Source: Candidatus Atabeyarchaeum deiterrae (GTDB lineage Archaea; Asgardarchaeota; Atabeyarchaeia; Atabeyarchaeales; Atabeyarchaeaceae). From it: DNA of 64,000 nucleotides. The notes below the pieces were generated by a model. The model saw nothing but the letters and a program-made list of their open reading frames with translations, had not been told where the DNA came from and did no database searches. Both the position numbers and the translations under genes were made by a program. Shown here piece after piece: positions 1 to 58,525 of the stretch (position 1 is the stretch's first letter; each line of letters begins with the position of its first letter). The stretch is from the NCBI GenBank assembly GCA_037310415.1, contig CP147780.1, positions 320,001-384,000 on the forward strand. The letters are read 5' to 3'.

Positions 1-488
1 TTGAGGTCGCCCAATAGGTGTTCGTAGTTTCTTATCCTGAAAGTTCCATCAACTGCGCCACTTTTGGAGAGAACGGTTTTCACACCTTTGTGGACTTTAA
101 CGATTGCCTCTGCAATGAGTCTCTTATAGCCTGCTAGCTCTGGAGGAACCTCAATGACAGCGATGTCACCTATTATGTCGAATGAATGCTTAACATGTTC
201 CAGCACGGATGGATCCATGCAGCCACTCAATGCTTCGACAATACTGTGTGGGCGCCTTACCTTGTGAAGGATTTTTGGCTCGATGCTTATTGTTTTCGCT
301 TTGTGGGTGAGATTCCTGATTAATCTCCACTCTTGGGAACTTGGCGCTCTTAGTAAGGGAAACTGAATCAAGTCCTTGTCTCTGGTGATTTCTCTTTGCG
401 TATCTAGAAGTGAAGCGTGCTTGAGCAATTGCCTTATTCGTTCGCCAAGGTTCTTTGGAACGCCCAGACACAGTGAGTCGTCTCTCAT
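1..488 (-). CDS. trm5: tRNA (guanine37-N1) methyltransferase Trm5 family, N-terminal part (runs off window)
   Basis: Manual translation from ATG at 488: ...SFDIIGDIAVIEVPPEL...VKTVLSKSGAVDGTFRIRNYEHL, typical of Trm5/Tyw2; open to the window edge. Confidence 0.85.
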   Translation of the reverse strand, partial: MRDDSLCLGVPKNLGERIRQLLKHASLLDTQREITRDKDLIQFPLLRAPSSQEWRLIRNLTHKAKTISIEPKILHKVRRPHSIVEALSGCMDPSVLEHVKHSFDIIGDIAVIEVPPELAGYKRLIAEAIVKVHKGVKTVLSKSGAVDGTFRIRNYEHLLGDL

Positions 489-686
489 CTGAACACTCCC
501 AGTTGCGTTAGACGCCTTATGTTTGCGATCTTCATATGTTGGCAATACTTGACAAAACAAATAGGCGTACGAACTACATTATTGAATCTATCGCCATCAA
601 GTCCCAAAAAAAGTTTATAATGTCGTAGGTCATTCCTTTTACATCTAACAACTTATCATAAAGGTTTAGGCTGAACAGAGAATTGT

Positions 687-799
687 GGGCCTGTAGCTCA
701 GCCAGGTAGAGAACCAAAAAAATGGAGAACCTGCTAAGTGCCTAAAGCGTCGGGCTCTTAACCCGATGGCCAGGGGTTCAACTCCCCCCAGGCCCGCCA
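687..799 (+). tRNA. tRNA-Lys(CTT) with a 36-nt intron at 22/23 (710-745)
   Basis: GGGCCTG/CAGGCCC acceptor, TCGGG-CTCTTAA-CCCGA anticodon arm, TTCAACT loop, encoded CCA; BHB helix AGGT/GCCT with bulges AG|A and AA|A gives a 77-nt mature tRNA. Confidence 0.93.
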
Positions 800-856
800 T
801 CCATAATCTGCGTCGAGTTCTGTACCTTCAGGACAAGCAGAGTTTCTGGGGATTTA

Positions 857-1282
857 CTAGAAGTCCACTTGAACGGTTACATACACCTTGTTCTTCGAGT
901 TCCTCAACACTCTGATGATATTTCGATCAATTTCTGCGGCGGATTTGTCCGCTCTCACCATCAGAGTTCGCCCGCACACGAAGCTGCTTTTCCGACAGAC
1001 AATATCTTCGGTGCTTGTAAGCGAGAGGCGAGGGTCACCAACCCCCTTGATTACTTCTTCAAGGCCATCAACCTCGAGTCTTAGTGTTACGTCTGAGGAG
1101 TGTTTTCTAAGAAGTCTTCTAAGGGGTTCACCAAAGTCGCTTAACGATTTACTTGCACGGACGGCGACTATGCAATCTCCTCGGACAGTGACTTCTCCTG
1201 CTCTAGTTATTTCCAAGGTTGTCGGATGGGTACCCCGAATATTCGCGTGTCCGCAAGCGGTTAGCGACTCAGCAATTTTCAT
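857..1282 (-). CDS. DUF371 family protein
   Basis: GHANIRGTHPTTLEIT...RGDCI...VCRKS motifs; likely start ATG 1282. Confidence 0.85.
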   Translation of the reverse strand: MKIAESLTACGHANIRGTHPTTLEITRAGEVTVRGDCIVAVRASKSLSDFGEPLRRLLRKHSSDVTLRLEVDGLEEVIKGVGDPRLSLTSTEDIVCRKSSFVCGRTLMVRADKSAAEIDRNIIRVLRNSKNKVYVTVQVDF

Positions 1283-1482
1283 TACAGTAACACCCAAGAC
1301 AATACAAATGAGTGGCACTAGCTGGCAGTGGTCTATCTTTTTAATACCACCGGAGCCTCTTATTACTATATGCCCGTTTCCGATTGGGTTCCTCCACACC
1401 AACAGGCAGTTAAATAGAATCAGTAGATTGTAGAAGGTAGAGCAGGGTTCTTCCCACTTGATAGGTGGTGATTGGTGAAGGA

Positions 1483-2195
1483 ATGAAGGATCTAACTGAT
1501 GCTAAAGAGAAGCTCAAACAGCGTTTCATTGAAGAGGGTATTGTGAGCAGCTCAAGTGTCATTAATGCATTCATGAATGTCCCCCGGGAAGAATTCGTTC
1601 CCCCGAACATTAGGGAAGATGCGTACGACGACCGCCCGCTTCCAATAGCAGCTGGTCAAACAATAAGCGCACCACATTACTTGGTCTGTCCCAAGTAAGG
1701 TGAAACATGGTTGTCATAATGTGCGAGCAGCTGAGGCTGGAAGAAGGGAATAAGGTATTGGAGGTAGGGGCAGGCTCAGGTTACCATGCAGCTATTTGCG
1801 CGGAAATTGTTGCTCCACCTGCATCTAATAATCCTGGATACGTCTACTCGGTAGAGAGAATATCATCTTTGGCGAAATGGGCCAGGGAGAATCTGAAGAG
1901 AACTGGATACGCTAATCGTGTGAAGGTAATCGTTGGAGATGGGACAATGGGTTATCGAGAAGCCATGCCTTATGACAGGATACTTGTCACGGCTTCGGCG
2001 CCGAGAATACCCGAACCACTGGTAGAACAGCTGAGAGTAGGGGGCACAATGGCAATACCGATAGGGGAAAAGTATGGCTGGCAAGAGCTTGTTCTTGTCA
2101 AGAAAGTGAAAGAGGAAGAAGTTGTTACAACTAATTTTGGTGGAGTAGCTTTTGTGCCGCTAATCGGCGAGCATGGCTGGAATAACGAAGAATAA
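1483..2195 (+). CDS. pcm: Protein-L-isoaspartate O-methyltransferase, split by a 29-nt BHB intron (exons 1483-1675, 1705-2195)
   Basis: VPREEFVP, AYDDRPLPI, GQTISAPH|MV, VLEVGAGSGY, PYDRILVTASA, VAFVPL; the two ORF halves join in frame after intron removal. Confidence 0.93.
1676..1704 (+). other. Putative BHB-type mRNA intron in pcm
   Basis: Central helix CACC/GGTG, bulges AC|A and AA|A, perfect 8-bp inner stem TTACTTGG/CCAAGTAA; splicing yields GCA CCA CAC ATG (A-P-H-M). Confidence 0.88.
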
Positions 2196-2388
2196 CACTT
2201 GTTCGTCCTTCTTGTTTCTTCCATCGCATTGTCGCCAGCAAGGTAAGTCTTCAAGAATCCTCGATGCAGATGTTTCTATTCTCACGGGTTGTTCAAAGTT
2301 TATATATAGGGGTAGAATCGAGAATAGAGAGTATCGTTGGAGTAGTTTGACTCAAGGCGGACGGTGAATTACAACGGCAGTAGAGATA

Positions 2389-3216
2389 GTGAAGAAAGCA
2401 CTCCAATTGAGATCACAAGGATCCACCGAAGAAGCGGCGAAGCTCTATTTGCAGGCTGCAATCGACTTTGAGAAGAATGGAAAAGTTGCCGATGCGGCTC
2501 AAGCATACAACGAGGCAGGACTACTTCTGGCTGAAACTGGAAAAGATGAGGACGGCGTGAAGCTCTACCTCAAAGCAATTGAGGCTTTCGACAAAGTGAG
2601 AGACTCAGAAGGAAAAGCTGATTCCAGCTACAACGCCTGTGTCGCCTTCAACAATCTAGGATCTTACGAAGAAGCTGCCAAAAACTGCTCCGTTGCCTTA
2701 AAGATCTACGAGGAATCAAAGAGTGAGGAGAAAATGGGAGACGCACTGTACGGCCTCGGACTCGCATACATGGGTCAAGGCAAGTTCGATGATGGATTGA
2801 ACTTGTTCAACAGGGCACTTGACATATGCAAGAGAATGGGCAACTTTGAAGGAATCATGAGTATCTCTCTTGATATCGGCAACACGTATCTCAAGAAAGA
2901 GGATTTTGAAAAAGCACTTGATTCTTTCAAATCAGCTCTATCCGTTGCTCAGAAGCTGAAGGACGACGGAAGCATAGCTGATACTCTCAGCGCCATGGGA
3001 GAAGCATATGAACTATCTGAAGACTACAGAAGATCCGCCGACTCGTTTTTGTCCGCGGCGGAAAAATACTTGAACGCAGGAATGGGGGAGCTGGCAGAAG
3101 AATACACTTATCGTATCGAGAACCTGCTTCCAGAACTCACCAGTGTGACAGCCGACAAGATGAAGAAGAGAGTAGAAGAGATACGTAGTGGGATTACCAA
3201 GCAGCAAAAACAATGA
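2389..3216 (+). CDS. Tetratricopeptide/alpha-SNAP-like repeat protein
   Basis: Repeated A..Y..A...Y helical TPR pattern. Confidence 0.8.
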   Translation: MKKALQLRSQGSTEEAAKLYLQAAIDFEKNGKVADAAQAYNEAGLLLAETGKDEDGVKLYLKAIEAFDKVRDSEGKADSSYNACVAFNNLGSYEEAAKNCSVALKIYEESKSEEKMGDALYGLGLAYMGQGKFDDGLNLFNRALDICKRMGNFEGIMSISLDIGNTYLKKEDFEKALDSFKSALSVAQKLKDDGSIADTLSAMGEAYELSEDYRRSADSFLSAAEKYLNAGMGELAEEYTYRIENLLPELTSVTADKMKKRVEEIRSGITKQQKQ

Positions 3217-3265
3217 TCCTTCCTAGATGTTAACAAACACAGCAGACAGGAAAATCAACTCAGGA

Positions 3266-3835
3266 TCACATTACTCTCGTAGAGAATCGCTGGAATATCC
3301 TTTTTGCCACCATCGTAAACGCACTGTTGATTAGCTCACCTGTCTTTGCGCTTGTCTCAAAAAACTCAGCGCCAAGCTGTGACGCTTTTTGCTGTCCTTC
3401 AACCCTCTTAACAGCCCTATCATTATCAAGGTCCATCTTGTTGCCAATCAAAGTGAAGGGAATATCGCCACAAACTTCCTTGACTTCCCTGCTCCACTTC
3501 GGTATGACGTCAAACGATTTTCTGTCTGAAATACTGTAGACTAGCATAGCGGCCCTTGCGCCGGGATAGTAGAAGGATCTTATCCGCATGAATTGCGCCT
3601 GCCCCCCAAGATCCCACAACTGTAACTTCACCTGTTGATCATTCACATTCAAGGTTTTTACGGCAAAATTGGTTCCGATTGTTGTTATGTATTCCCCTAG
3701 AAAGCGATCTTGCGTGTACCGCAGAATAAGGGAAGTCTTCCCAACTCCGCCTTCTCCCACGACTACTACCTTAAATACATACTTAGGGGATTGAAGCATC
3801 TCATTATTCCCCCTTAACCACGTACTAGTAATCAT
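3266..3835 (-). CDS. Rab-like small GTPase
   Basis: GEGGVGKTS, TTIG, WDLGGQ, GNKMD, ETSAK; no C-terminal prenylation Cys; start may be 3799. Confidence 0.93.
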   Translation of the reverse strand: MITSTWLRGNNEMLQSPKYVFKVVVVGEGGVGKTSLILRYTQDRFLGEYITTIGTNFAVKTLNVNDQQVKLQLWDLGGQAQFMRIRSFYYPGARAAMLVYSISDRKSFDVIPKWSREVKEVCGDIPFTLIGNKMDLDNDRAVKRVEGQQKASQLGAEFFETSAKTGELINSAFTMVAKRIFQRFSTRVM

Positions 3836-3915
3836 AATATCAACCTATATTGTTTTCTAGGAGTCACACTTGATCTTCGTTTAATGGTGACTTGTTCGCA
3901 ATGCAAAACAGATTC

Positions 3916-4710
3916 CTACTGACGATTATCGTTTCCGCTTGATTCTGCTTTGACATAAGGGGACATCAGTATCTTCTTTGCCTTCTCGATTATGGAAGGC
4001 CCTATTCCTTTGACTTCAGAAATTGATCCTGTTAAGCGCTTGGTCTTACCCGTCTTGGATTGCTTCACATCGCTTTCGGCGATCCCTTTGAACACACTAT
4101 AGGGTGTCTGGGCCTTTAAAAGAAGACTTTCCGCCAGAGTGACCCCGATGTTTGGCAGACCTGAAATCAAGTATTGTTGTTGTTGAGCGAGGGTAAGCAT
4201 CTTTTCTTTCGGTCTTATAACTACTGGACGCTTATCTTTTACTTGTTCACAGTAGGCCACTCGCTCAATGAACCTGGCAGTATGTTTGACGTCTGGAGTC
4301 GGTACTATTGGCAACTTTAGCTCGACTGCAATACTGGCGATTGCTCCCCACACCGAGCTTTCATTTATCCTCGTGAACTTGAAAATAAGAGACATATATC
4401 CTTCGAGAATAAGAATAGGAATCTCGTAGGCGTCCTTAAGTCTGGAACACTCGTCAAATATCCTGCTAGTGTAGATCGAGTTTGCAAGTTCCTTAACATT
4501 CTTCCTTTCAAAGGCCACACGATCAGACGCTACATAGTCGCCTACGCTCAGTTGTCTTTCAACGACATTAACGTCAAGTTCTCTTAGGTATTCAGCAACT
4601 TTCGAACGGAGCTCTCTCTTATCGACAAATACAGTTACTCTCTGAGAAACGGACTCATCATGCTTATTTTGACATGAGTTCAAAGTTCTTTGGTCCATAC
4701 ACAATAGCAC
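3916..4710 (-). CDS. ERCC4/XPF-family nuclease with HhH domain
   Basis: VDKRE, GDYV, ERK, EG motifs; GLPNIG and VKGIG HhH motifs. Confidence 0.9.
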   Translation of the reverse strand: MLLCMDQRTLNSCQNKHDESVSQRVTVFVDKRELRSKVAEYLRELDVNVVERQLSVGDYVASDRVAFERKNVKELANSIYTSRIFDECSRLKDAYEIPILILEGYMSLIFKFTRINESSVWGAIASIAVELKLPIVPTPDVKHTARFIERVAYCEQVKDKRPVVIRPKEKMLTLAQQQQYLISGLPNIGVTLAESLLLKAQTPYSVFKGIAESDVKQSKTGKTKRLTGSISEVKGIGPSIIEKAKKILMSPYVKAESSGNDNRQ

Positions 4711-5030
4711 TCCCTACGCTAACTTATAAGACAAGCAGAATCCTGGAAACATGTACTAAATGACTTATCGCTATAAATATTCTTAAACATCCGTACGCGG
4801 AAGGAATACTTAGAAGATAGCAGTTCAATTTCGAGATCTAATTAGGTAGCGTTCGAGACCCGTAAAACATAGACATTTCAGCTGCTGATTTGGCTAGCAT
4901 GAGAATACGACATTCAAAGTCATGCGAGAAGGAATCAACTCAATCTTGCTAGTGGTTTAGAAAATCTTCTGACGAGAATTGGAAGACCCAGAATGAAAAC
5001 TTTCTTAATGAAAGCCCGTCTCTTGGTTTC

Positions 5031-5504
5031 CTATCGCTTCCTAGACTTTGCAGAACTGTGTCCCTTGGTTCCTGCGGACTTGGCTGCCTTTTGTTTTTTG
5101 CGAGGCTTCGAGGTTTTCTTTTCTTCTGCACGCATGACCTCGAGTTTCTGTCTTACCTTCTCTCTTTCGCGATCTTCGTCATGCCTCTGAACGCTTTCCT
5201 TCAAAGGTAGTAACTCTCGGTTGACATCGAATAGGCGAAGCAAATGTTGCTTGACTTGTTTGTCGTGTTGTTTTGCAGTGATCTTTCCTGCCTCATACTG
5301 TTCTTCCAGAGTCTTAATCTGGGCACGTAGATTCTCGCATTCAGTAGAAAGCTCAGTTATCTTCTTCACCGTGGAAGCATACTCTTCCTCATTAAGAGTG
5401 ACCAGTTCGTGTTTCGCTCGTTTCGGAGAAGCACGTCGTGCCTTCACGCCAATTACATTCTTCGATCGCATGGGTTGCGATTCCCCCAATATGACTTTCC
5501 GCAT
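5031..5504 (-). CDS. Hypothetical coiled-coil protein with steadiness-box-like hairpin and basic tail
   Basis: LEEQYEAGKIT resembles LEEKYEAGDIS of the Vps23-like protein at 25161-25949. Confidence 0.6.
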   Translation of the reverse strand: MRKVILGESQPMRSKNVIGVKARRASPKRAKHELVTLNEEEYASTVKKITELSTECENLRAQIKTLEEQYEAGKITAKQHDKQVKQHLLRLFDVNRELLPLKESVQRHDEDREREKVRQKLEVMRAEEKKTSKPRKKQKAAKSAGTKGHSSAKSRKR

Positions 5505-5732
5505 CTGCTTTTCCTAAATAATACTCATTGACTTGGGCTTTATGAGCATTTCCGATAAGAGTAGCTTGAACTAAAGATGGTTTGCGAAGTAGACAACGAC
5601 AAGAGCATGGGTGAAGTCCTTGACTTCTCGAGGCTTCAATCAAAGAGGTCACGACAAAACTGGGATTTTTTGGCTTTCTTGTGAAAGAGTGTTTATAAAG
5701 TCGTATTACGTGAGTATTACTGGGACTCGGAT

Positions 5733-6173
5733 TTGAGCGAAGTCAACCGCATGAGTTCACCAAGATCTGGAACATCATCCGGAAAGACCTCTATCTGGCA
5801 GAGAGATGAGCTTCTTCTAGTTCTAAAGTGCACCAGTAGATGCCTCCCTTTGGAAGATATGGTAAAGTTCGTCGACTTCTTGGAAAGTGTCCTACCTTCC
5901 GAGAAAATCATCAAGTTCCCGACAGTTTCCTCCATCAGTAAGCAATTGGAGCAAATGGTCAAAACGGCATTGTTAGAGAAGAGAGGCGGTTGCTATAGGC
6001 TAGCTGAAAGAGGCGTTAAATTCGCGGATGAAGCAGAACTCTCAATGGAAACAGATGAGGAAGTCGATACGATATGGCACGCTGCCAGAAACGCGCTTGT
6101 GAACCTTCCTTCGAATAGGTTGATGTGGGATTCTCACCTATTTTCTGCTTTGAAAGAAATAAAGGGAGAATGA
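5733..6173 (+). CDS. Hypothetical winged-helix protein
   Basis: LEQMVKTALLEK...YRLAERG wing pattern; upstream TTTATAA. Confidence 0.55.
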   Translation: MSEVNRMSSPRSGTSSGKTSIWQRDELLLVLKCTSRCLPLEDMVKFVDFLESVLPSEKIIKFPTVSSISKQLEQMVKTALLEKRGGCYRLAERGVKFADEAELSMETDEEVDTIWHAARNALVNLPSNRLMWDSHLFSALKEIKGE

Positions 6174-6257
6174 TTTGCCCATAAGACAATAGCAAAGGGC
6201 TTTCAATATCAAAATGCATATTAACTGCAGGGCTGCGATAACTAGTTTTGTCAAACC

Positions 6258-6896
6258 TTGGAAGGGTTAGAAGAAATGCTTTCTAGCAGGAAAAAGAGAT
6301 TCTCAAGATTGCTCTACCCTTTTGCGAAAGCCCTCGAGAAGATGCACCTCTCACCTAATGCGGTAACTGCCTTAGGGTTTTTCCTTACCATGTTGGTCGC
6401 CCCTTCCATAATCCTCGCGAATTATATCCTGGCTGGTATATTGGTATTCGCCGCAGGGTTCTGTGACGTGTTAGATGGTGCACTCGCCAGAATGACCAAT
6501 AGAGTTACAGCACTTGGCGGATTCATTGATTCAGTTTTGGACAGATACTCAGATGCCATAATTCTCCTCGCAATGGTATTTGCGGGACTCTGCAACGTCG
6601 TATGGGGCTTCATAGCATTAGTTGGCTCGCTACTGGTCAGCTATTCAAGAGCCAGAGTTGAGGCGTATGGGGTCAAGCACTTCGTAGTAGGATTTGCTGA
6701 GAGACCAATAAGACTTCTCTTACTTGGTTTCGCACTCTTGCTTGAGAGCTGGTTTCCTAGAACTGTGAACTATAGCGTGATTGCTCTTGCAATCCTCACA
6801 CATCTTACCGTGCTTCAGCGTGCCATATCGGCGAAAGATGTGCTTACAGCTGGCAACAAGCAAGCCAAGCCTAGGTCAGATCGAAGGCGTTCTTGA
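6258..6896 (+). CDS. CDP-alcohol phosphatidyltransferase (archaetidylinositol-phosphate synthase-like)
   Basis: SPNAVT, DVLDGALAR...G.FIDSVLDRYSD, SYSRARVE. Confidence 0.93.
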   Translation: MEGLEEMLSSRKKRFSRLLYPFAKALEKMHLSPNAVTALGFFLTMLVAPSIILANYILAGILVFAAGFCDVLDGALARMTNRVTALGGFIDSVLDRYSDAIILLAMVFAGLCNVVWGFIALVGSLLVSYSRARVEAYGVKHFVVGFAERPIRLLLLGFALLLESWFPRTVNYSVIALAILTHLTVLQRAISAKDVLTAGNKQAKPRSDRRRS

Positions 6897-7218
6897 TCAG
6901 TTTGTTCAAGAACGTTTTTGCATTCTCCATCGCACGTTTGCCTTCCTCGGTTATCGCATAGTACTTCCTGTCGGGTTTTCCCTTTCGTTCAGCCACATCT
7001 CGTTTGACTTCTACTAACCCCTCACGAGCCATCTTGTAAAGTATGACATAGGATGATACTGTTGCTGGCTTGAAACCGAATCGATCGTTAATCATGGCAC
7101 GTATCTCGTAGCCATATCGAGGGCGTTCTTGGAGAAGGCGAAGAATGTAGACCCAAAGGTTCTCTCTAGTCAGTTTTGACATGAACCTTCGCAAAGCCTT
7201 GGAGTTGTCTTCCGCCAA
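6871..7218 (-). CDS. PadR-family transcriptional regulator
   Basis: RYGYEI, Y.ILYKM..EGLV, RKYYAITEEG. Confidence 0.9.
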   Translation of the reverse strand: MAEDNSKALRRFMSKLTRENLWVYILRLLQERPRYGYEIRAMINDRFGFKPATVSSYVILYKMAREGLVEVKRDVAERKGKPDRKYYAITEEGKRAMENAKTFLNKLIKNAFDLT

Positions 7219-7351
7219 AGAGCCGACCTCCAGACGAGTAGCAACAGCATAAAGAAACTCTGTAAACGCCTCAAAAGGCAGTTTCTATTCTGGCGCTATT
7301 CACTAATTTAGTTTTTGTATGAGAGAACACCCATATCATGTTGGTCGGATT

Positions 7352-7990
7352 TCATCCTCTTCTCGTTTCTTTTCTATCAAGTTCATAGTGAACAAGGGTT
7401 ATCACTTGAGACGATAGGTAGCTAATGGGACCTACACGCACCCTTTTGGCGCGAAGTTCGTCCAAAACATGTTCATCTTCCGCAGTTAGCCCTTTTTGGT
7501 CTCCCACGATGAAGATCTTCGTGTCTTGAATGCTCATGTCTGCGTTTCTGATGTCTTCACCTTTCTCATGTAAGTAGTAGAGGGCACCCCGTTTGTTGGA
7601 GGTCATCTCCGAACTTATCGCTTCATTGAATGACTTCTTCTCAACTAGTAGTCCTGGCGGGCACGGTGACACATGCATGTCACTCTTCTCAAGATCTCTA
7701 AAAACGTCTTTCAACATTGCTGCCAAAGCTATCTCGCTGAAGGGCAGATCTCTGAGTCTTCCTCCATCAAACCTCAAACTCAGTGGGGGACTAGGGGGTC
7801 CTTCAAGCACGCCAACGAAGACGGTATCTCGCCTGATTCTTCCACTGTCAAGTATTGCAGAAATCGCACAGCGGCATACGACTTCCAGACGTCCGCTCGA
7901 GCTTGGCAGGTCTCTTAAGTTGAAGTCGCTTGACGTACGAGCTGTGCTGGACTTCAATACGAAGATTCGATCCAATCTCAACGCCCTCAT
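7352..7990 (-). CDS. trmY: tRNA (pseudouridine54-N1) methyltransferase
   Basis: DLPSSSGRLEVVCR, IRRDT, LHEKGEDI, FIVGDQKG, VGPISY. Confidence 0.9.
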   Translation of the reverse strand: MRALRLDRIFVLKSSTARTSSDFNLRDLPSSSGRLEVVCRCAISAILDSGRIRRDTVFVGVLEGPPSPPLSLRFDGGRLRDLPFSEIALAAMLKDVFRDLEKSDMHVSPCPPGLLVEKKSFNEAISSEMTSNKRGALYYLHEKGEDIRNADMSIQDTKIFIVGDQKGLTAEDEHVLDELRAKRVRVGPISYLSSQVITLVHYELDRKETRRG

Positions 7991-8272
7991 CGTGATCTAT
8001 TTGGGTCACATGTCAGTAATATAACACGTGACTGCTACCGTTACTGGCGGAGTTCTCATCATGCTCAGCCAAGGCTAGAACTGAGGGTAGATGCAAAAGC
8101 AGCAAACTAACGAAGAACGTGTAGTCGATGCTCACTACTGGAGAACTCATCTCAGGCTAAGTCTCAGCAAAAAGGAGCATTACAGGCAAGCCATAGTATC
8201 ATAAACACTTTTAAATATTCATACAGGTAACTTGAGACCTAGAAGAGAGTTTTTGGATGGTGTTGCAACAGA

Positions 8273-8557
8273 ATGACTAAAAAGAGACGAAGCCGAGGAA
8301 GGTCCAAAGGCGGATCAGGGCGAAAAGGTCTAGTTCAGTGCTCCAACTGTGGAAAACAAGTTCCCAGAGACAAAGCAAAAAGGGTGTCAAAATGGGTAAC
8401 CTTGGTTGACCCTCAAATGGCAAGAGAGCTCAGACAACAGGGAGCGATTCTGCCTCACGAGAAGGTCATGAAGTTCTATTGCATATCCTGCGCCGTTCAT
8501 ACAGGACAAGCGAAGGTCAGGGCAAGAGACGAGAGAAAAATGACAATTCGGCTGTAA
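8273..8557 (+). CDS. rps26e: 30S ribosomal protein S26e
   Basis: MTKKRRSRGRSKG, CSNC..VPRDKA, YCISCAVH. Confidence 0.97.
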   Translation: MTKKRRSRGRSKGGSGRKGLVQCSNCGKQVPRDKAKRVSKWVTLVDPQMARELRQQGAILPHEKVMKFYCISCAVHTGQAKVRARDERKMTIRL

Positions 8558-8680
8558 ATGGATATCGAGTAATATTGCGTCTTGATGTTAATCTTCCCTA
8601 CCAGAAATGCCTTGACGCGGAATATCTTAAACCAGCTGCATACTATTCTTGACCAGATGAACCCAGTGGGAGGATTGTCG

Positions 8681-9577
8681 TTGGCGCTTGACATGATAGT
8701 TGTTGGCCATTTCGCCATAGACTATGTTGTCAGAGACGGTCAGTCTCTTCCTCCCTCTTTGGGCGGAACAGTGACATTCTCAAGCCTAGCCGGGGCGCGG
8801 CTGGGAGCCAGGGTCGGAATCGTGTCAAAGGTTGGTCCCGATTTCCGAGATGATCATCTTCTTGTTTTTGCACGGAGTGGAATTGATGTCTCAGCTATTA
8901 AGAAAGCCAAGACCCCAACCACGAAGTACAAGCTTCAATATTCAGGCGAAGAGAGAAGCCTAATGTTACTTTCTAAATGTGATCCAATAGAACCCAAGGA
9001 TGTTAAGAACCTTCGTGGTAACGTTGGTGCTGTTCATTTAGGTCCCATTGCAGGAGAGATTCCGATAGAGACAATTGAGGAAGTTGCAAAATGGGGGGTT
9101 CCAGTTCTACTAGATTTGCAGGGAGTAGTAAGAAAGTTTGACAAAAACGGTAACGTCTCGGTAGAAAGAAACCCACTTCTCCCTGAGATACTCGGCAAAG
9201 TGACGATAGTAAAAGCTACTCTGAAGGAAGGAGAAGTAGCGACTAGTGCATCAGGTCCCGAGAAGGTGGCCTGCTCGCTTATAGACATGGGATGTGAGAT
9301 TGCCATCGTTACGCTTGGAGGAAAAGGATCATATGTTTCAACTCATGATGAAGAATCATTTTCCACGCCTGCTATCAAGCCACGAAAAGTGACTGATTAT
9401 ACGGGCGCAGGAGACGTCTATGCCGGCTCGTTCCTTGTTGAGTACTCGAGGATCCACGACATTAGACGTTCAGCCATTATAGCTAGCACCGCTGTGTCAT
9501 TCAAGGTTGAAGGTCACTCGACCTCTGGTTTCGCATCAAGGCAAGAAATAGAAGAAAGAGCGAAGGGTTACCTTTGA
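8681..9577 (+). CDS. PfkB-family carbohydrate kinase
   Basis: GG-V-F, VTLGGKGS, DYTGAGDVY; TTG start after GGAGG. Confidence 0.9.
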   Translation: MALDMIVVGHFAIDYVVRDGQSLPPSLGGTVTFSSLAGARLGARVGIVSKVGPDFRDDHLLVFARSGIDVSAIKKAKTPTTKYKLQYSGEERSLMLLSKCDPIEPKDVKNLRGNVGAVHLGPIAGEIPIETIEEVAKWGVPVLLDLQGVVRKFDKNGNVSVERNPLLPEILGKVTIVKATLKEGEVATSASGPEKVACSLIDMGCEIAIVTLGGKGSYVSTHDEESFSTPAIKPRKVTDYTGAGDVYAGSFLVEYSRIHDIRRSAIIASTAVSFKVEGHSTSGFASRQEIEERAKGYL

Positions 9578-9607
9578 TCTAAACTAGATAGAAGAGCAGC
9601 TGTACTT

Positions 9608-9955
9608 TCATGTGAGATCGAATGCATTTCTGAACAACTTGGTCAACATTGTTTTTGCAGCTTGCATCGCGCGTTCTCCGTCCTTGGTTATGACGTAATG
9701 CTTCATCTCGGGTTTTTCCTTTCCTTCAGTTCCTCCCTTCTTAGCTTCCACCAGACCATCTTTAGACATCTTGTAAAGTATTACATGCGATGCGAGCGTG
9801 GGAGGATTGAATCCAAACCTCTTCTTTATCGTGGCACGGATCTCATAGCCATACTTCGGGCCCTCTTGGAGAAGACGTAGGATGTATATCCAGAGATTTT
9901 CGTTTGTGAGTTTTGTAAGGAATCTGCGCAAAGCCTTAAACTGGTCAACGGACAA
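9608..9955 (-). CDS. PadR-family regulator (close paralog of 6871-7218)
   Basis: LT.ENLW.YILRLLQE.P.YGYEIRA and C-terminal NAFDLT shared with the paralog; probable TTG start 9955. Confidence 0.88.
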   Translation of the reverse strand: MSVDQFKALRRFLTKLTNENLWIYILRLLQEGPKYGYEIRATIKKRFGFNPPTLASHVILYKMSKDGLVEAKKGGTEGKEKPEMKHYVITKDGERAMQAAKTMLTKLFRNAFDLT

Positions 9956-10175
9956 ATGATCAACTCCATACGGATTCAGAACTTGTACTTTAGTCTCGGG
10001 ATGACTTGAAGGTCTGCACCCTTGCATATGTGACTATGGCAGTTTCCTAATGTAAACATTATGCTTAGAGTCTGAGATCTTTGCCGCATATACGATGCTC
10101 ATGTATGGACCTGCAAATCCAGAGGAACTAGAGCTAGTCTCAAAAAGGGGAGAATGGAAATCCTGCAAGGGCTAG

Positions 10176-11363
10176 TTACTTAGAAGGTGGTTTTCGGCCA
10201 AATATATGGACCACGGATACTGTCCCACTTCCGCCAACATTGTGAGTGAGACCTATTTCAGGCTGCGGTGAGATTTGCATTTTCTCAGCCTCTCCACGAA
10301 GCTCCTTCACTATTGTTCGAATCTGAGAACAACCTGTAGCCGCAACTGGGTGACCTTTTGCCTTCAAACCGCCATCAACATTCACAGGTATTCTGCCGTC
10401 GACAGCAGTCTGTCCCTCTAGCGCCATTTTACCGCCTTCGCCTTTTTTGAAGAATCCAAGGTCTTCGGTTGCTACTATCTCAGCAATTGTAAAACAGTCG
10501 TGGACCTCGGCGATTTGAACTTTCTCTGGACCCACGCCTGCCATCTTGTAAGCCATCTTGCTGGCTTCAACTGCGGCCCTCAGTGACGTGAGATCATCTC
10601 TCCGGAACGTCGCCAGTGAATCCGTGCCCGCGCCGCTACCTAAAACGTAGATAGGTGCATCGGTGAATTTCTTTGCTATATCTGCTCTGGTAACTATAGC
10701 CGCTGAAGCGCCATCAGTGAGAGGGCAGCAATCATAAATGTTTAATGGCTGTGCGACCATCCCAGTCAAGTCTGCTTGCATATATTGTTCCATTGTGATT
10801 GGTCTCCTGAACTGCGCCAACGGGTTGTTTACTGCATTCTTGTGGTTCTTGACTGCCACCGCTCCAAGCATCTGTTTAGTAGTCTTGTAAACATGCATGT
10901 GTCGTTGAGCTACGAGAGCATACATGCCTGCAAACGTTATTCCAAAGTTGCTTTCCCAGTCGGAGTCACCGCCTCGACCCATTTCGAAGAGAACCTGTGA
11001 TGTCCCGATGTCGTGCATTTTCTCCGTGCCGCACGCCAATGCTATGTCTGCGTAGCCTGACGCGACTGCCATCAACGCGCAGCGGAATGCATAGCCTGAA
11101 GTTGCACAAGCATTCTCCACCCTATGGATAGGTTTAGGTAAGAGATTCAGGTAGTCACCAAACCATCCTGAAACATTACCTAGCTGGGTGCCGCCGAGTC
11201 CTGTAAATCCTATGAACACTTCGTTGATGTCCTTGAGTTCAAGGTTATTGCAGTCACTCACGGCATCCAACACTGCCTCAGCAAGCAACTTCGTGCGGTC
11301 TTTCTCATAGAGCTGACCGAACTGTGTCTGACCAACTCCAATAACTGCAACTTTTTCGGGCAA
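10176..11363 (-). CDS. Archaeal/SCP2-type thiolase (acetyl-CoA acetyltransferase, AcaB/PhlC-like)
   Basis: ENACATS, EVHDCF, KGHPVAATG, HNVGG. Confidence 0.93.
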   Translation of the reverse strand: MPEKVAVIGVGQTQFGQLYEKDRTKLLAEAVLDAVSDCNNLELKDINEVFIGFTGLGGTQLGNVSGWFGDYLNLLPKPIHRVENACATSGYAFRCALMAVASGYADIALACGTEKMHDIGTSQVLFEMGRGGDSDWESNFGITFAGMYALVAQRHMHVYKTTKQMLGAVAVKNHKNAVNNPLAQFRRPITMEQYMQADLTGMVAQPLNIYDCCPLTDGASAAIVTRADIAKKFTDAPIYVLGSGAGTDSLATFRRDDLTSLRAAVEASKMAYKMAGVGPEKVQIAEVHDCFTIAEIVATEDLGFFKKGEGGKMALEGQTAVDGRIPVNVDGGLKAKGHPVAATGCSQIRTIVKELRGEAEKMQISPQPEIGLTHNVGGSGTVSVVHIFGRKPPSK

Positions 11364-11397
11364 TTTGATTTCTCTCCTCCCATAGTATCTTAGTAGC

Positions 11398-11850
11398 TCA
11401 TTGTTCCTCCTTCTTTTGAGTCGGTTCCTCGGAGATGGGTCTGAATTTGAAGCCGTACTGAACTTGTCCTGTCTGTGAGACGTAGAGTCTTCTGAGAACC
11501 ATTTCGACTGGAGTTCCTATACCGATCTGTTTTTCCTTTCCTTGCATGGTCTTGATAGGCAGGTAGTCTGTTATCTGAGAAAGTACCTTGACTCCGTTCT
11601 CCAGTTCGACAATCACGAGTAGGTATGGACCTGTTAGCTCGACCTGCTCGATACCTGTTGCTGGTGGAACTATGATGCCACTCCAAGAGAATATCTTGCC
11701 CTTTCTTGGCATTTCGACGTCTTCGAACTCGGTACCTCCACACGAGCAGATGTGCTGAAACGGAAAATAGTTGCGACCACATTTCTTGCATTTTACTCCG
11801 ATGAGTCTAAATCTTCTATGTTGCTCTCTCCAGAAAGCAGGGGCATACAT
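11398..11850 (-). CDS. DUF35 Zn-ribbon/OB-fold protein (PhlB-like)
   Basis: CKKCG..YFP...CSCG, GKIFSW, YGFKFRP. Confidence 0.9.
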   Translation of the reverse strand: MYAPAFWREQHRRFRLIGVKCKKCGRNYFPFQHICSCGGTEFEDVEMPRKGKIFSWSGIIVPPATGIEQVELTGPYLLVIVELENGVKVLSQITDYLPIKTMQGKEKQIGIGTPVEMVLRRLYVSQTGQVQYGFKFRPISEEPTQKKEEQ

Positions 11851-11908
11851 TTGGTTATTCACCACGCTTTTGCTGAATTCCAATACTACTTACCGATAGC
11901 GAGTTTTC

Positions 11909-12970
11909 CTACAGTCCAATGTAGGAGACCTTCATTTTCTTTGGAATCAGATTCTTCTGCTTGGCGTACTCAATGTAACTAAGGTACATTTTCCGCTCAA
12001 TGAGTTTTGCGAAGGAAGGTGACGCGCGCTTCCCTTCAATTTCGTCCGTCACTAATAGGCTGATAGCGTCCGATGCGCTGGAACCTCCGTAGGCAACAGC
12101 GAGTATCCTTTCTCCTGGTTGGGCCACGTCCAACACGGCAGCAAGACCCAGTGGCACTGAGGCAACCCCCGTGTCACCTGTATTCTGTATGACCATGCCT
12201 TTCTGCGTCACAGCAGGTTGTAAGCCAAGTTTTCCTGCGGCAACGAGTGGCCAATCACCGTTAGGCTGCTGCAATATAATGTGGTTGAAGTCTTCGAAGC
12301 TCTTACCGACCTTACTCACCAAGTTCTTGGCTGCTTCAGAGACATGCCAAACATAGCCATAGTCCTGAGCGAATCTCGGATTGTCTAGCGCTTGAATAAC
12401 GTCGGTTTCCGCTCCCGTCCTCCACCTATCTGCAAACTCTGAGGTCATCGAACTGGAAGCTTCTAACTCGGCAATCGTGCCACCGCTGCCAACGACAAAA
12501 GCTGCAGCGCCGCATCCAACCCCTTGTTCTGTCTCTGGAATATTTCCTGGTGGTCCCGAAAGGACATCCGATGCTACGACAATAGCGCGTTTCCCTCTAC
12601 CTGACGAGACGTAGTCGGACGCAGCTATTAGTGCCGATATTCCGGCCTTCTCAGAATGGGCGAAGTCAGCCGTATAGATGTCTGCTCTCACGCCCAGAGC
12701 CAAAGCAATCGTAGGCGCGGTCATCTTAAGCGTATATGGAGCTGATGTCGACGCCCAGAATACTGCATCAATATCTGAAGACTCTGCCCCAGACGACCTT
12801 AAAGCGGAGATAGCGGCCTCGGCACCCATAGTCGTCGCGTCTTCGTCGAATGCAGGGACGGTTTTCTCGTTGATTCCTTTAACGAGGAATATGTTCCAAG
12901 TTTTTATGTACTCGTCTTTCTTAATCCTGAACCTAGGCAGGTAAGCCCCGTACCCTATGATACCTACCAT
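11909..12970 (-). CDS. HMG-CoA synthase-fold protein with degenerate catalytic residues (PhlA-like)
   Basis: GIIGYGAYLPRFRI, DEDATTM, YGG; the expected ESHPY, ACKAG and HQPN motifs read TSAPY, SEKAG and QQPN. Confidence 0.85.
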   Translation of the reverse strand: MVGIIGYGAYLPRFRIKKDEYIKTWNIFLVKGINEKTVPAFDEDATTMGAEAAISALRSSGAESSDIDAVFWASTSAPYTLKMTAPTIALALGVRADIYTADFAHSEKAGISALIAASDYVSSGRGKRAIVVASDVLSGPPGNIPETEQGVGCGAAAFVVGSGGTIAELEASSSMTSEFADRWRTGAETDVIQALDNPRFAQDYGYVWHVSEAAKNLVSKVGKSFEDFNHIILQQPNGDWPLVAAGKLGLQPAVTQKGMVIQNTGDTGVASVPLGLAAVLDVAQPGERILAVAYGGSSASDAISLLVTDEIEGKRASPSFAKLIERKMYLSYIEYAKQKNLIPKKMKVSYIGL

Positions 12971-17401: not shown

Positions 17402-18810
17402 TTAGAAGTAGTCGGAGAGGCTTTGTTGAGCGCGGTCTCCCTGTTTCGGTTTTGCCGCGGTTTGATCCTTTGCTCTCAGTGATTCTTTCTTCTCGTTGAG
17501 ACTGTTGCTACTTTCGACTGGAGGTGCCTCATCTTCGAATATTATTGGGTAACCATACGTGCCGTCGTACCCTGGTCTGAAGCGAATCTTTTTCTCCCTG
17601 ACTCTGAGGATCGCATCGGCGAGTCTTGCTCCTGAAATTGAAGATATTTCTTCTCTTGAAGCTTCGAGAAGAACATGTAACTCATTGGGAAACTTCTTGA
17701 GCAGTTTGCCATATTCTTCCCAGACACCTTTTGCAAAGACGTCTTTCATCCCCAAGGCAACGGAGATTATCTCTTGAAGTGGGATCAAACAAACATAAGG
17801 TATGGCACCCTGGAGTATGTAGCCCTCAGGTCTATCGGCTAGTTCCTCGATCCTATGCAGAACGCCAACTGTCAGCTTTTTCCTACAAACAGGGCACATG
17901 TTCCCATACTTAGAAGCTTCTTTCGGACTAAGTACGACGTTACAGTCTCTGTGACCAGTGTAATGATATTTCCCATACTCTGGATTTGTCTCAATTGTCA
18001 TCAAGAACCTTTTGGGGTCCTTCTTGCGGATCACGTCAATTATCTCTTTATATGTTACCCCATCCAGTTGAAACACATTTGCTTCCCTGCCAAGACGGTA
18101 GGGCCATGGACTATGGGAGTCGCTGTTGCTCACCAACGTATATTTGTCCAATGCAGAAAGTCGCCAGTTCATCATGGGGTCAGAGCTTAGACCTGTCTCA
18201 ATCGCATGGACGTTCTTTGTTTGGTCTTGGAAACACTCCTCAATACTGTCAAATCCACTCCTTGAGCCAAACAATGAGAACCATGGAGTCCATGCATGTG
18301 CTGGAATTACCTCGTTCCAGTTATCAATTTCCATTATGACCTCAGTCAGTTCTGCAGCTGCAACTCTTAGCTTTGGCCTTCCGTCTGAGTTGAGGTCACC
18401 GTACTTTGAGATTCTGTCAGCTACTTGGTCGGCCACATCTAGGTTCGGACACAAGATTATGAGGTGGATTCGTTTTGGCTCTCCTTTGGACTGGAACCCA
18501 GCCTCAACTTCGCAGGTCGCCATGAAGCGCACTGACTCTGCAGCATTTGCATTGTTTAGAACATACAGCCCACTGTTATCAACCTCTGACAAAGAAGATT
18601 TGCATTCTGCAAGCCATCTCGGCATTGTGAATTGGAGACTCGTCTACTTCAGAAGGACTTGCAGCACGAGTTATCCCCTGTGCCGAGGAGAGTCAGACCC
18701 TTCATCTTGGCTTGTCTCTCAAGGTTGACTAGATTCATTTGTTCGCTAGTGGCAGCTGAGTACTTGCTGTGGATATGGAGGTCTGCAATAACTTTCAGAC
18801 TAGATTCCAC
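17402..18810 (-). CDS. endoQ: Endonuclease Q (PHP-family), split by a 41-nt BHB intron (exons ~18810-18673, 18631-17402)
   Basis: Exon 1 ADLHIHSKYS...GTGD; exon 2 FTMPRW...PAHAWTPWFS, ETGLSSD, SNSDSHS, CPVC; start GTG 18810 or CTG 18798. Confidence 0.88.
18632..18672 (-). other. Putative BHB-type mRNA intron in endoQ
   Basis: Central helix GGGG/CTCC, bulges AT|A and AA|T, inner stem ACTCGT/ACGAGT; splicing yields GGG GAT TTC ACA ATG (G-D-F-T-M). Confidence 0.87.
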
Positions 18811-58417: not shown

Positions 58418-58525
58418 GGGCCGGTAGCTCAGTTTGGAAGAGCGCCACGTTGGCATCGTGGAGATCCCTAGAAATATCGAAGAAGGGGCCATAAGTCGCG
58501 AGTTCAAATCTCGCCCGGTCCACCA
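58418..58525 (+). tRNA. tRNA-Ala(GGC) with a 31-nt intron at 45/46 (58464-58494)
   Basis: G3:U70 pair, CCACG-TTGGCAT-CGTGG; BHB helix GTGG/CCAT, bulges AG|A and AA|G. Confidence 0.93.

What the first reader, a model, noticed from the sequence alone, without database searches (positions are those of the whole stretch)
1670..1709. 29-nt BHB intron in pcm at QTISAPH|M
Seen: CACC AC|A TTACTTGG TCTGTC CCAAGTAA GGTG AA|A C ATG. The 8-bp intronic stem is perfect and contains the TAA that ends the upstream ORF. Removing 1676-1704 gives ...ATA AGC GCA CCA CAC ATG GTT (ISAPHMV), the canonical PIMT motif. The exonic outer helix is only about 1 bp (relaxed HBh' form). By established knowledge, that form needs a broad-specificity splicing endonuclease.
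Basis: partly seen in the sequence, partly recalled or inferred. Interest (0 to 1): 0.9.

Follow-up and report, generated by a model that had tools for sequence, protein, structure and literature searches.

The report
tRNA-type intron splitting Asgard pcm gene
The only protein-repair methyltransferase gene (pcm) of this Asgard archaeon is broken by a 29-base insert shaped like a tRNA intron; the same insert shape sits at the same codon in dozens of other archaea, so the tRNA-splicing enzymes very probably cut it out of the mRNA, which has been published for only one other archaeal gene (cbf5).

Summary
Removing 1676-1704 (29 nt) joins Pfam profile positions 3-61 and 61-208 and restores GQTISAPH|MVV. 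[quoted passage not shown] The outer exon helix is only about 1 bp.

A covariance model found the same insert at the same codon (21-32 nt) in 18 of 151 genomes of the same phylum. It also found it in 33 of 151 genomes of a second group, whose seed record is titled Bathyarchaeia. Across 30 sequences 97.7% of cells pair, against 27-43% in slid controls. The inner stem differs in sequence between lineages but stays paired. The one variable central pair switches A-U to G-C together with a synonymous Ala codon change.

Both exons are under strong purifying selection. The genome encodes an EndA alpha subunit with the specificity loop, an EndA beta subunit and RtcB. At least five other genes of this genome carry similar inserts.

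No RNA data could be obtained, so splicing itself is inferred. Earlier follow-ups of this scan reported the pcm intron on other genomes. The paper searches found no published case other than cbf5. I class it as a new member of a known kind.

The parts
1483..1675 (+). pcm exon 1. ATG at 1483; the frame is open from GTG 1465. It ends with the first base of the His codon.
   Evidence: ORF list. Pfam PCMT profile 3-61, E 5e-13. dN/dS 0.03-0.06 in related intron-bearing pairs.
1669..1669 (+). 5' base of the single outer (exon-exon) pair, G1669-C1706.
   Evidence: G-C in 28 and G-U in 2 of 30 sequences.
1670..1673 (+). Central helix H, 5' strand (CACC). It is exon sequence: the last two bases of the Ala codon plus CC of the Pro codon.
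   Evidence: Pairs with 1699-1702. 100% paired in 30 sequences. Position 2 covaries, A-U in 4 and G-C in 26.
1674..1676 (+). 5' bulge ACA. The predicted cut is between 1675 and 1676.
   Evidence: Geometry. The cut rule is from PMC2738675. The junction restores the CAC His codon.
1676..1704 (+). 29-nt BHB intron. A shift of both cuts by one base, 1677-1705, gives the same product.
   Evidence: Removal fuses the two PCMT halves in frame. Same-site introns of 21-32 nt occur in 30 inspected genomes.
1677..1698 (+). Inner helix h': 8 perfect base pairs (1677-1684 with 1691-1698) around the loop TCTGTC. It contains the in-frame TAA at 1696-1698.
   Evidence: All 7 aligned pairs show changes on both sides between lineages.
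1699..1702 (+). Central helix H, 3' strand (GGTG). It is intron sequence.
1703..1705 (+). 3' bulge AAA. The predicted cut is between 1704 and 1705.
1705..2195 (+). pcm exon 2. It begins with the last two bases of the His codon and then the conserved Met. Stop codon at 2193-2195.
   Evidence: Pfam PCMT profile 61-208, E 2e-44. dN/dS 0.02-0.05.

Best explanation
pcm is transcribed as a precursor mRNA carrying a 29-nt archaeal bulge-helix-bulge intron. The last exon bases (CACC) pair with the intron's GGTG to form the 4-bp central helix. An 8-bp intron hairpin forms the inner helix, and the two 3-nt bulges present the cut sites. The heterotetrameric splicing endonuclease (EndA alpha-beta, with the specificity loop) cuts after the second base of each bulge. 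RtcB then joins the exons. The result is a 227-codon mRNA for a normal protein-L-isoaspartate O-methyltransferase.

Shown here:
- the motif and its exact fit to the frame and to the protein family;
- conservation of the motif, with compensatory changes;
- selection on both exons;
- presence of the enzymes.

Inferred: that cutting and ligation actually happen, and that the unspliced RNA gives no functional product.
For: - **Contiguous halves.** The two ORFs match contiguous PCMT profile positions (3-61 and 61-208), and removing 1676-1704 restores TISAPHM.
- **Only copy.** This is the only true pcm in the 2.76-Mb single-contig genome.
- **Same site elsewhere.** The same codon carries a BHB insert in 18 of 151 genomes of the phylum (six families) and in 33 of 151 genomes of a second class. 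I parsed 12 of those 33 hits and all 12 show it.
- **Not translated.** Lengths are 21-32 nt in all three residues mod 3. Every insert divisible by 3 carries an in-frame stop.
- **Covariation.** A MAFFT alignment of 10 sequences gave 97.5% paired cells, 8 of 12 pairs with changes on both sides, and 0 of 500 shuffles reaching the score. The 30-sequence alignment gave 97.7% paired, against 27-43% slid. The synonymous GCA/GCG Ala codon always matches U/C in the intron strand.
- **Selection on both exons.** pS is 0.63-0.85 and pN 0.06-0.24; dN/dS is 0.02-0.06 wherever synonymous sites are not saturated.
- **Enzymes.** The EndA alpha subunit (238 aa) matches the A. pernix alpha subunit 3P1Z_B at E 2e-46, with Tyr/His/Lys and the loop lysine aligned. 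A second, His-less paralogue (198 aa) fits a beta subunit. RtcB is full length at 582 bits.
- **Other genes.** valS, glyA, rio2, an MTAP-like gene and an endoQ-like gene in the same genome have similar short inserts that split contiguous family profiles.
Against: - No transcript evidence: no RNA run held this DNA, and four runs of the same studies laid nothing.
- The outer exon helix is only 1 bp. The single-sequence minimum-energy fold prefers a shifted 3-bp register over the 4-bp helix with bulges.
- In this genome the 3' end of the insert reads TAA-GGTGA-AAC-ATG. That also looks like a stop, ribosome-binding site and start arrangement for a separately translated second half.
Confidence: 0.88

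Rival explanations
1. pcm is a genuinely split gene. The 77-aa N-terminal piece ends at TAA 1696-1698. The 162-aa C-terminal piece is translated separately from ATG 1707 by coupling through the GGTGA just upstream. The two pieces assemble into an active enzyme without RNA splicing.
For: In this genome the sequence reads TAA GGTGA AAC ATG. The Met at the start of the second ORF is the conserved Met of the motif in all pcm genes.
Against: - The GGTG is GGCG in 26 of 30 relatives, which is not like a ribosome-binding site. It always stays complementary to the exon strand.
- The position of the upstream stop is not conserved. In L016 the upstream frame runs past the ATG.
- A split-protein arrangement gives no reason for a paired hairpin with compensatory changes, or for the exact 3-4-3 geometry.
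- The break falls inside the most conserved motif.
Confidence: 0.05
2. pcm is a decaying pseudogene, or a gene disrupted by a small insertion or repeat, with no function.
For: A frame-breaking insert with a stop codon is what a pseudogene looks like in one genome.
Against: - Both halves are intact and under strong purifying selection in several lineage pairs whose synonymous sites are near saturation.
- The insert is kept at the same base in 30 inspected genomes of two groups.
- It is the only pcm copy.
Confidence: 0.02
3. The ribosome bypasses the 29 nt (translational hopping, as in T4 gene 60), or shifts frame, so that one protein is made from the unspliced mRNA.
For: A stable hairpin with a stop codon sits in the gap.
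Against: - There are no matched take-off and landing codons.
- Gap length and sequence vary freely (21-32 nt), while the feature that is conserved is the endonuclease motif.
- The genome has the matching endonuclease and ligase.
Confidence: 0.01

Closest known systems
BHB intron in the cbf5 pre-mRNA of Crenarchaeota (Watanabe 2002; Yoshinari 2006; Yokobori 2009, PMC2738675)
   Same: - A short intron inside a protein-coding region, at a catalytic or conserved motif.
- A relaxed BHB motif, cut between the second and third bulge bases.
- The hosts have hetero-oligomeric EndA.
- Patchy distribution among related lineages.
   Different: - A different host gene (pcm, a protein-repair methyltransferase).
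- A different host phylum (Asgard, plus a Bathyarchaeia-titled group).
- The cbf5 junctions were confirmed by cDNA and in vitro cleavage; the pcm junction is not.
- PMC2738675 states that no gene other than cbf5 had confirmed pre-mRNA splicing.
Non-canonical (HBh') tRNA introns of Thermoproteales and of Atabey-/Freyarchaeia (PMC11291895; preprint 10.64898/2026.10.13.758758)
   Same: The same motif geometry, the same size range and the same predicted enzymes. The families that carry the pcm intron include complete genomes whose sizes match the tRNA-intron-rich lineages described there.
   Different: The host RNA is an mRNA. No cloverleaf supplies the outer helix, and the exon half of the motif is constrained by codons. 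Neither paper reports introns in protein genes.
Unconventional HAC1/XBP1 mRNA splicing in eukaryotes (Ire1 cut, tRNA ligase or RtcB join); from my own knowledge
   Same: Protein-only endonuclease cuts at stem-loops in an mRNA. Ligation is by a tRNA-type ligase. Removing the intron changes the reading frame.
   Different: The nuclease (Ire1) is unrelated and recognises a different motif. That event is regulated, and nothing here shows regulation.

Membership tests
Archaeal BHB intron (substrate of EndA and RtcB) | [quoted passage not shown] | tested here: met
   CACC/GGTG with bulges ACA and AAA. The helix is 100% paired in 30 sequences.
Archaeal BHB intron (substrate of EndA and RtcB) | Cuts after the second base of each bulge give a correct mature RNA | tested here: met
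   Removing 1676-1704 restores the frame and joins PCMT profile 3-61 to 61-208. The same holds in all 30 parsed relatives.
Archaeal BHB intron (substrate of EndA and RtcB) | Flanking helices h (outer) and h' (inner) of the strict hBHBh' form | tested here: not met
   h' is 8 bp, but h is a single G-C pair. This is the relaxed HBh' form, which the literature accepts as a substrate of loop-bearing (alpha-beta)2 EndA (PMC5829648).
Archaeal BHB intron (substrate of EndA and RtcB) | Structure conserved by compensatory change | tested here: met
   8 of 12 pairs have changes on both sides. 0 of 500 shuffles reach the score. Slid controls pair at 27-47%.
Archaeal BHB intron (substrate of EndA and RtcB) | The host encodes a splicing endonuclease able to cut relaxed motifs, and an RNA ligase | tested here: met
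   An alpha subunit with Tyr/His/Lys and the loop lysine aligned to A. pernix K44, plus a beta-like paralogue. RtcB at 582 bits. Activity was not assayed.
Archaeal BHB intron (substrate of EndA and RtcB) | The spliced junction is observed in RNA | not testable with these tools
   No RNA run holds the stretch, and four runs laid nothing.
PIMT / PCMT (PF01135) | A full-length match to the family profile, including the TISAPHM motif | tested here: met
   The two halves cover profile 3-208 without gap or overlap, at 49.7 and 152.2 bits. The motif is restored after excision.

The most novel reading that the evidence does not exclude
The pcm intron is an ancient mRNA intron. It would have been inherited from before the split of Asgard archaea and Bathyarchaeia and lost many times since. 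In this Asgard lineage it would be one of many BHB introns in housekeeping mRNAs (six checked here). That would make the tRNA-splicing endonuclease and RtcB an essential, genome-wide mRNA-splicing machinery in close prokaryotic relatives of eukaryotes.
Probability: 0.3. Interest if true: 0.85.

Novelty: new member of a known kind. Interest (0 to 1): 0.72.

Why it matters
Published work confirms enzyme-spliced (BHB) introns inside the coding region of only one archaeal gene, cbf5. A second gene family would change that picture in three ways.

- **Scope.** The insert is conserved with textbook covariation in two archaeal groups. tRNA-type splicing of mRNAs would then not be a one-off.
- **Annotation.** Such genes are currently called as two fragments or as pseudogenes. 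Here that hides the only pcm, and also valS, glyA and others.
- **Evolution.** In Asgard lineages whose tRNA genes are already known to be crowded with introns, it gives a concrete and testable case of obligatory mRNA splicing. That bears on how intron-rich genes and splicing dependence can arise in relatives of the eukaryotic ancestor.

Tried and rejected
- **RNA evidence.** The run search listed no RNA holder. Laying four metatranscriptome or Nanopore runs of the same studies on window 1-12000 laid nothing at all, so it says nothing about expression.
- **Genome-wide strict BHB scan.** I required a 4-bp helix, at least 4-5 bp of inner stem and joining of ORFs, with a codon-usage filter. It gave hundreds of hits, dominated by ordinary neighbouring genes, and it missed real relaxed cases such as valS and glyA. 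I dropped it as a census. It did rank pcm near the top and turned up the endoQ-like case.
- **Scan of genome contigs with the exon-2 alignment.** Only one of the 80 loci (L045) was interrupted.
- **pcm tree.** The backbone is unresolved. The intron label needs 5 changes on the best tree, but well-supported branches do not exclude a single origin. No conclusion on one gain against several.
- **Single-sequence folding.** The z-score is only -1.68, and the minimum-energy fold uses a shifted register. It was not used as support.
- **Pfam on the endoQ-like halves.** No hit; NCBIfam was needed.
- **Three window candidates from the scan (30438, 50664, 59937).** I rejected 30438 and 59937 as normal gene starts from their N-terminal sequences. 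I did not pursue 50664.

Full report
**What is in the sequence.**
Window 1465-1698 (frame 1) and 1707-2195 (frame 3) are two ORFs. Both hit Pfam PCMT (PF01135): the first at profile positions 3-61, the second at 61-208. The two pieces are therefore one gene cut at a single point.

- CACC (1670-1673);
- the 5' bulge ACA (1674-1676);
- an 8-bp perfect hairpin, TTACTTGG / CCAAGTAA (1677-1684 with 1691-1698), around a 6-nt loop;
- GGTG (1699-1702), complementary to CACC;
- the 3' bulge AAA (1703-1705);
- C1706, which can pair with G1669.

The TAA that stops the first ORF is inside the hairpin.

Cutting after the second base of each bulge removes 1676-1704. This is the rule stated for the cbf5 intron in PMC2738675. 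The result is one open frame reading GQTISAPHMVVIMCEQ. With the ATG at 1483 the mature ORF is 227 codons. This is the only real pcm in the 2.76-Mb single-contig genome. The other PF01135 hits are weak matches to the generic methyltransferase fold.

**Is it more than chance?**
The single sequence is not convincing on its own. The 71-nt fold has a z-score of -1.68, and the minimum-energy structure uses a 3-bp shifted register instead of the 4-bp helix with two bulges. The comparative evidence is decisive.

A protein search of 41 related genomes showed a frame break at the same residue in several of them. Reading the DNA showed an insert at exactly the same base, with the same architecture but a different hairpin sequence.

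A MAFFT alignment of ten of these sequences was scored against the BHB structure:
- 97.5% of cells paired;
- 8 of 12 pairs had changes on both sides;
- 0 of 500 shuffles reached the covariation score;
- pairing was 27-47% when the 3' partners were slid by 1-3 columns.

**How widely the insert occurs.**
I built a covariance model from that alignment.
- In the window's own phylum it found the element in 18 of 151 genomes, in six families: f1, f3, f7, f8, f14 and f18.
- In a second group it found it in 33 of 151 genomes. The seed record of that group is titled Bathyarchaeia.
- All 18 hits of the first group, and the 12 inspected hits of the second, parse as pcm with a BHB insert of 21-32 nt at the same codon. 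Excision restores Q-T-[IV]-S-A-P-H-M in each.

On the 30-sequence alignment 97.7% of cells pair, against 27-43% in the slid controls. This alignment is fitted to the model, so it leans towards the structure. The central helix is paired in 30 of 30. Its one variable position is the third base of the Ala codon, GCA or GCG, and it is always matched by U or C in the intron strand.

Insert lengths cover all residues mod 3. Every insert whose length is divisible by 3 carries an in-frame stop. The insert is therefore not translated.

Intron-free pcm genes use all four Ala codons, and mostly CCT for Pro. Intron-bearing genes use GCG or GCA, and almost always CCA. This hints at selection on synonymous sites that form the motif. 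Related genomes are not independent, so I count this only as a minor point.

**Is the gene alive?**
Four pairs of intron-bearing genes have near-saturated synonymous sites (pS 0.63-0.85) but few amino-acid changes (pN 0.06-0.24). dN/dS is 0.02-0.06 in both exons wherever it can be computed. A pseudogene is excluded for practical purposes.

**Are the enzymes there?**
The genome has two matches to PF01974.
- One ORF (238 aa) aligns over 176 residues with the catalytic alpha subunit of the Aeropyrum pernix heterotetramer (3P1Z_B, E 2e-46). It keeps the catalytic Tyr, His and Lys contexts. It also has a lysine aligned with K44 of the Crenarchaea-specific loop.
- The other ORF (198 aa) lacks the catalytic His context, as expected for a beta subunit.

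PMC5829648 states that only loop-bearing (alpha-beta)2 and epsilon2 enzymes cut relaxed motifs efficiently. It also states that Asgard archaea carry the (alpha-beta)2 type with this loop. RtcB is present and full length.

**Context in the genome.**
Leads from earlier first-stage notes of this scan were checked here. Four more genes carry short inserts whose removal restores a conserved motif:

| Gene | Insert | Position (G000:C1) |
|---|---|---|
| valS | 31 nt | 457150-457180 |
| glyA | 41 nt | 652709-652749 |
| rio2 | 52 nt | 771193-771244 |
| MTAP-like | 38 nt | 938160-938197, minus strand |

For valS, glyA and rio2 the flanking ORFs match contiguous parts of one Pfam architecture. For the MTAP-like gene only the upstream half reached significance.

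My own scan also found a 41-nt BHB insert at window 18632-18672 on the minus strand. It splits an endoQ-like gene: NCBIfam TIGR00375 matches profile 2-39 upstream and 73-372 downstream.

So pcm is one of at least six interrupted protein genes in this genome. I did not achieve a full count (see Tried and rejected).

**What organism?**
- Loci titled Hermodarchaeota and Promethearchaeia cluster with a family of the same phylum.
- The window holds a Rab-like small GTPase ORF.
- The runs listed for this DNA, found through its study, are soil and wetland metagenomes.
- The genome is one 2.76-Mb contig. Its family mate is one 2.8-Mb contig, and f18 includes one 3.6-Mb contig.
- PMC11291895 describes complete wetland-soil genomes of Atabeyarchaeia-1 (2.81 Mbp) and Freyarchaeia (3.58 Mbp), plus a second Atabeyarchaeia genome. 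In them 92-95% of tRNA genes have introns.

I infer that the window comes from an Atabeyarchaeia genome. This is an inference from sizes and context, not a name given by a tool.

**Rivals.**
- **Split gene with translational coupling.** In this genome the insert ends TAA-GGTGA-AAC-ATG, which could pass for a stop, ribosome-binding site and start. But the GGTG is GGCG in 26 of 30 relatives and follows the exon strand instead. The stop position is not conserved. A split protein also gives no reason for the paired hairpin or the 3-4-3 geometry.
- **Ribosomal bypass.** There are no matching take-off and landing codons.
- **Assembly error.** Excluded, because the insert recurs in independent assemblies.

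**Comparison with what is known.**
The mechanism is that of archaeal tRNA, rRNA and cbf5 introns. In six searches of the paper library the only coding-region case with published confirmation is cbf5. PMC2738675 says so explicitly, while noting predictions for other genes. The genome paper and a 2026 preprint on Asgard tRNA introns describe tRNA introns only.

Earlier follow-ups of this scan had already reported the pcm intron on other genomes: Asgard, Bathyarchaeia and one DPANN. I re-tested the Asgard and Bathyarchaeia parts myself and they hold. I did not test the DPANN claim.

**Origin.**
A pcm tree from exon 2 alone (about 160 residues) has an unresolved backbone. The intron label clusters by family, and a single origin is neither required nor excluded. 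One genome (G015) has two pcm copies, one with the intron and one without, and they do not group together. That would fit transfer or old paralogy.

**Verdict.**
This is a new member of a known kind: a BHB intron in an mRNA. The comparative support is strong, but there is no RNA-level proof yet.

Noticed in passing
window 17402-18810 (-), insert 18632-18672: An endoQ-like gene (NCBIfam TIGR00375) is split by a 41-nt BHB-type insert: helix GGGG/CTCC, bulges ATA and AAT, inner stem ACTCGT/ACGAGT. Excision gives ...LLGTGD|FTMPRW. The upstream 53-aa ORF matches profile 2-39 and the downstream ORF matches 73-372.
   Followed up: partly
G000:C1 457150-457180 (L041), 652709-652749 (L042), 771193-771244 (L043), 938160-938197 minus strand (L044): valS, glyA, rio2 and an MTAP-like phosphorylase in the same genome each carry a 31-52 nt BHB-like insert. 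Removal restores a conserved motif (GIDRNG|LPIE, EGWPG-E-RVYAG, GVGKE|SDVY, DVVG-M-TAYPE). Pfam halves are contiguous for the first three. Several of these motifs are relaxed, with a mismatch in the central helix or next to a bulge.
   Followed up: partly
window 58418-58522 (+) and 733-788 (+): Rfam tRNA hits. The first spans 105 nt for a 71-position model, so it holds extra sequence, probably one or more introns. The second matches only model positions 10-63.
   Followed up: no
window 3266-3835 (-): A 189-aa ORF with Rab/Ras-type small GTPase motifs (GEGGVGKT, WDLGGQ, GNKMD) in the ORF translation. It is typical of Asgard archaea. I did not run it against any family library.
   Followed up: no
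G015: L142 (C126) and L027 (C90): One genome of family f3 has two pcm genes, one with the 30-nt intron and one uninterrupted. They do not group together in the pcm tree.
   Followed up: partly
L045 = G075/G153:C8:8757-8811: The public record is titled 'Thermoproteota archaeon'. The genome sits in the same phylum as the window in the genome collection used here and carries the shortest Asgard-type pcm intron, 25 nt.
   Followed up: partly
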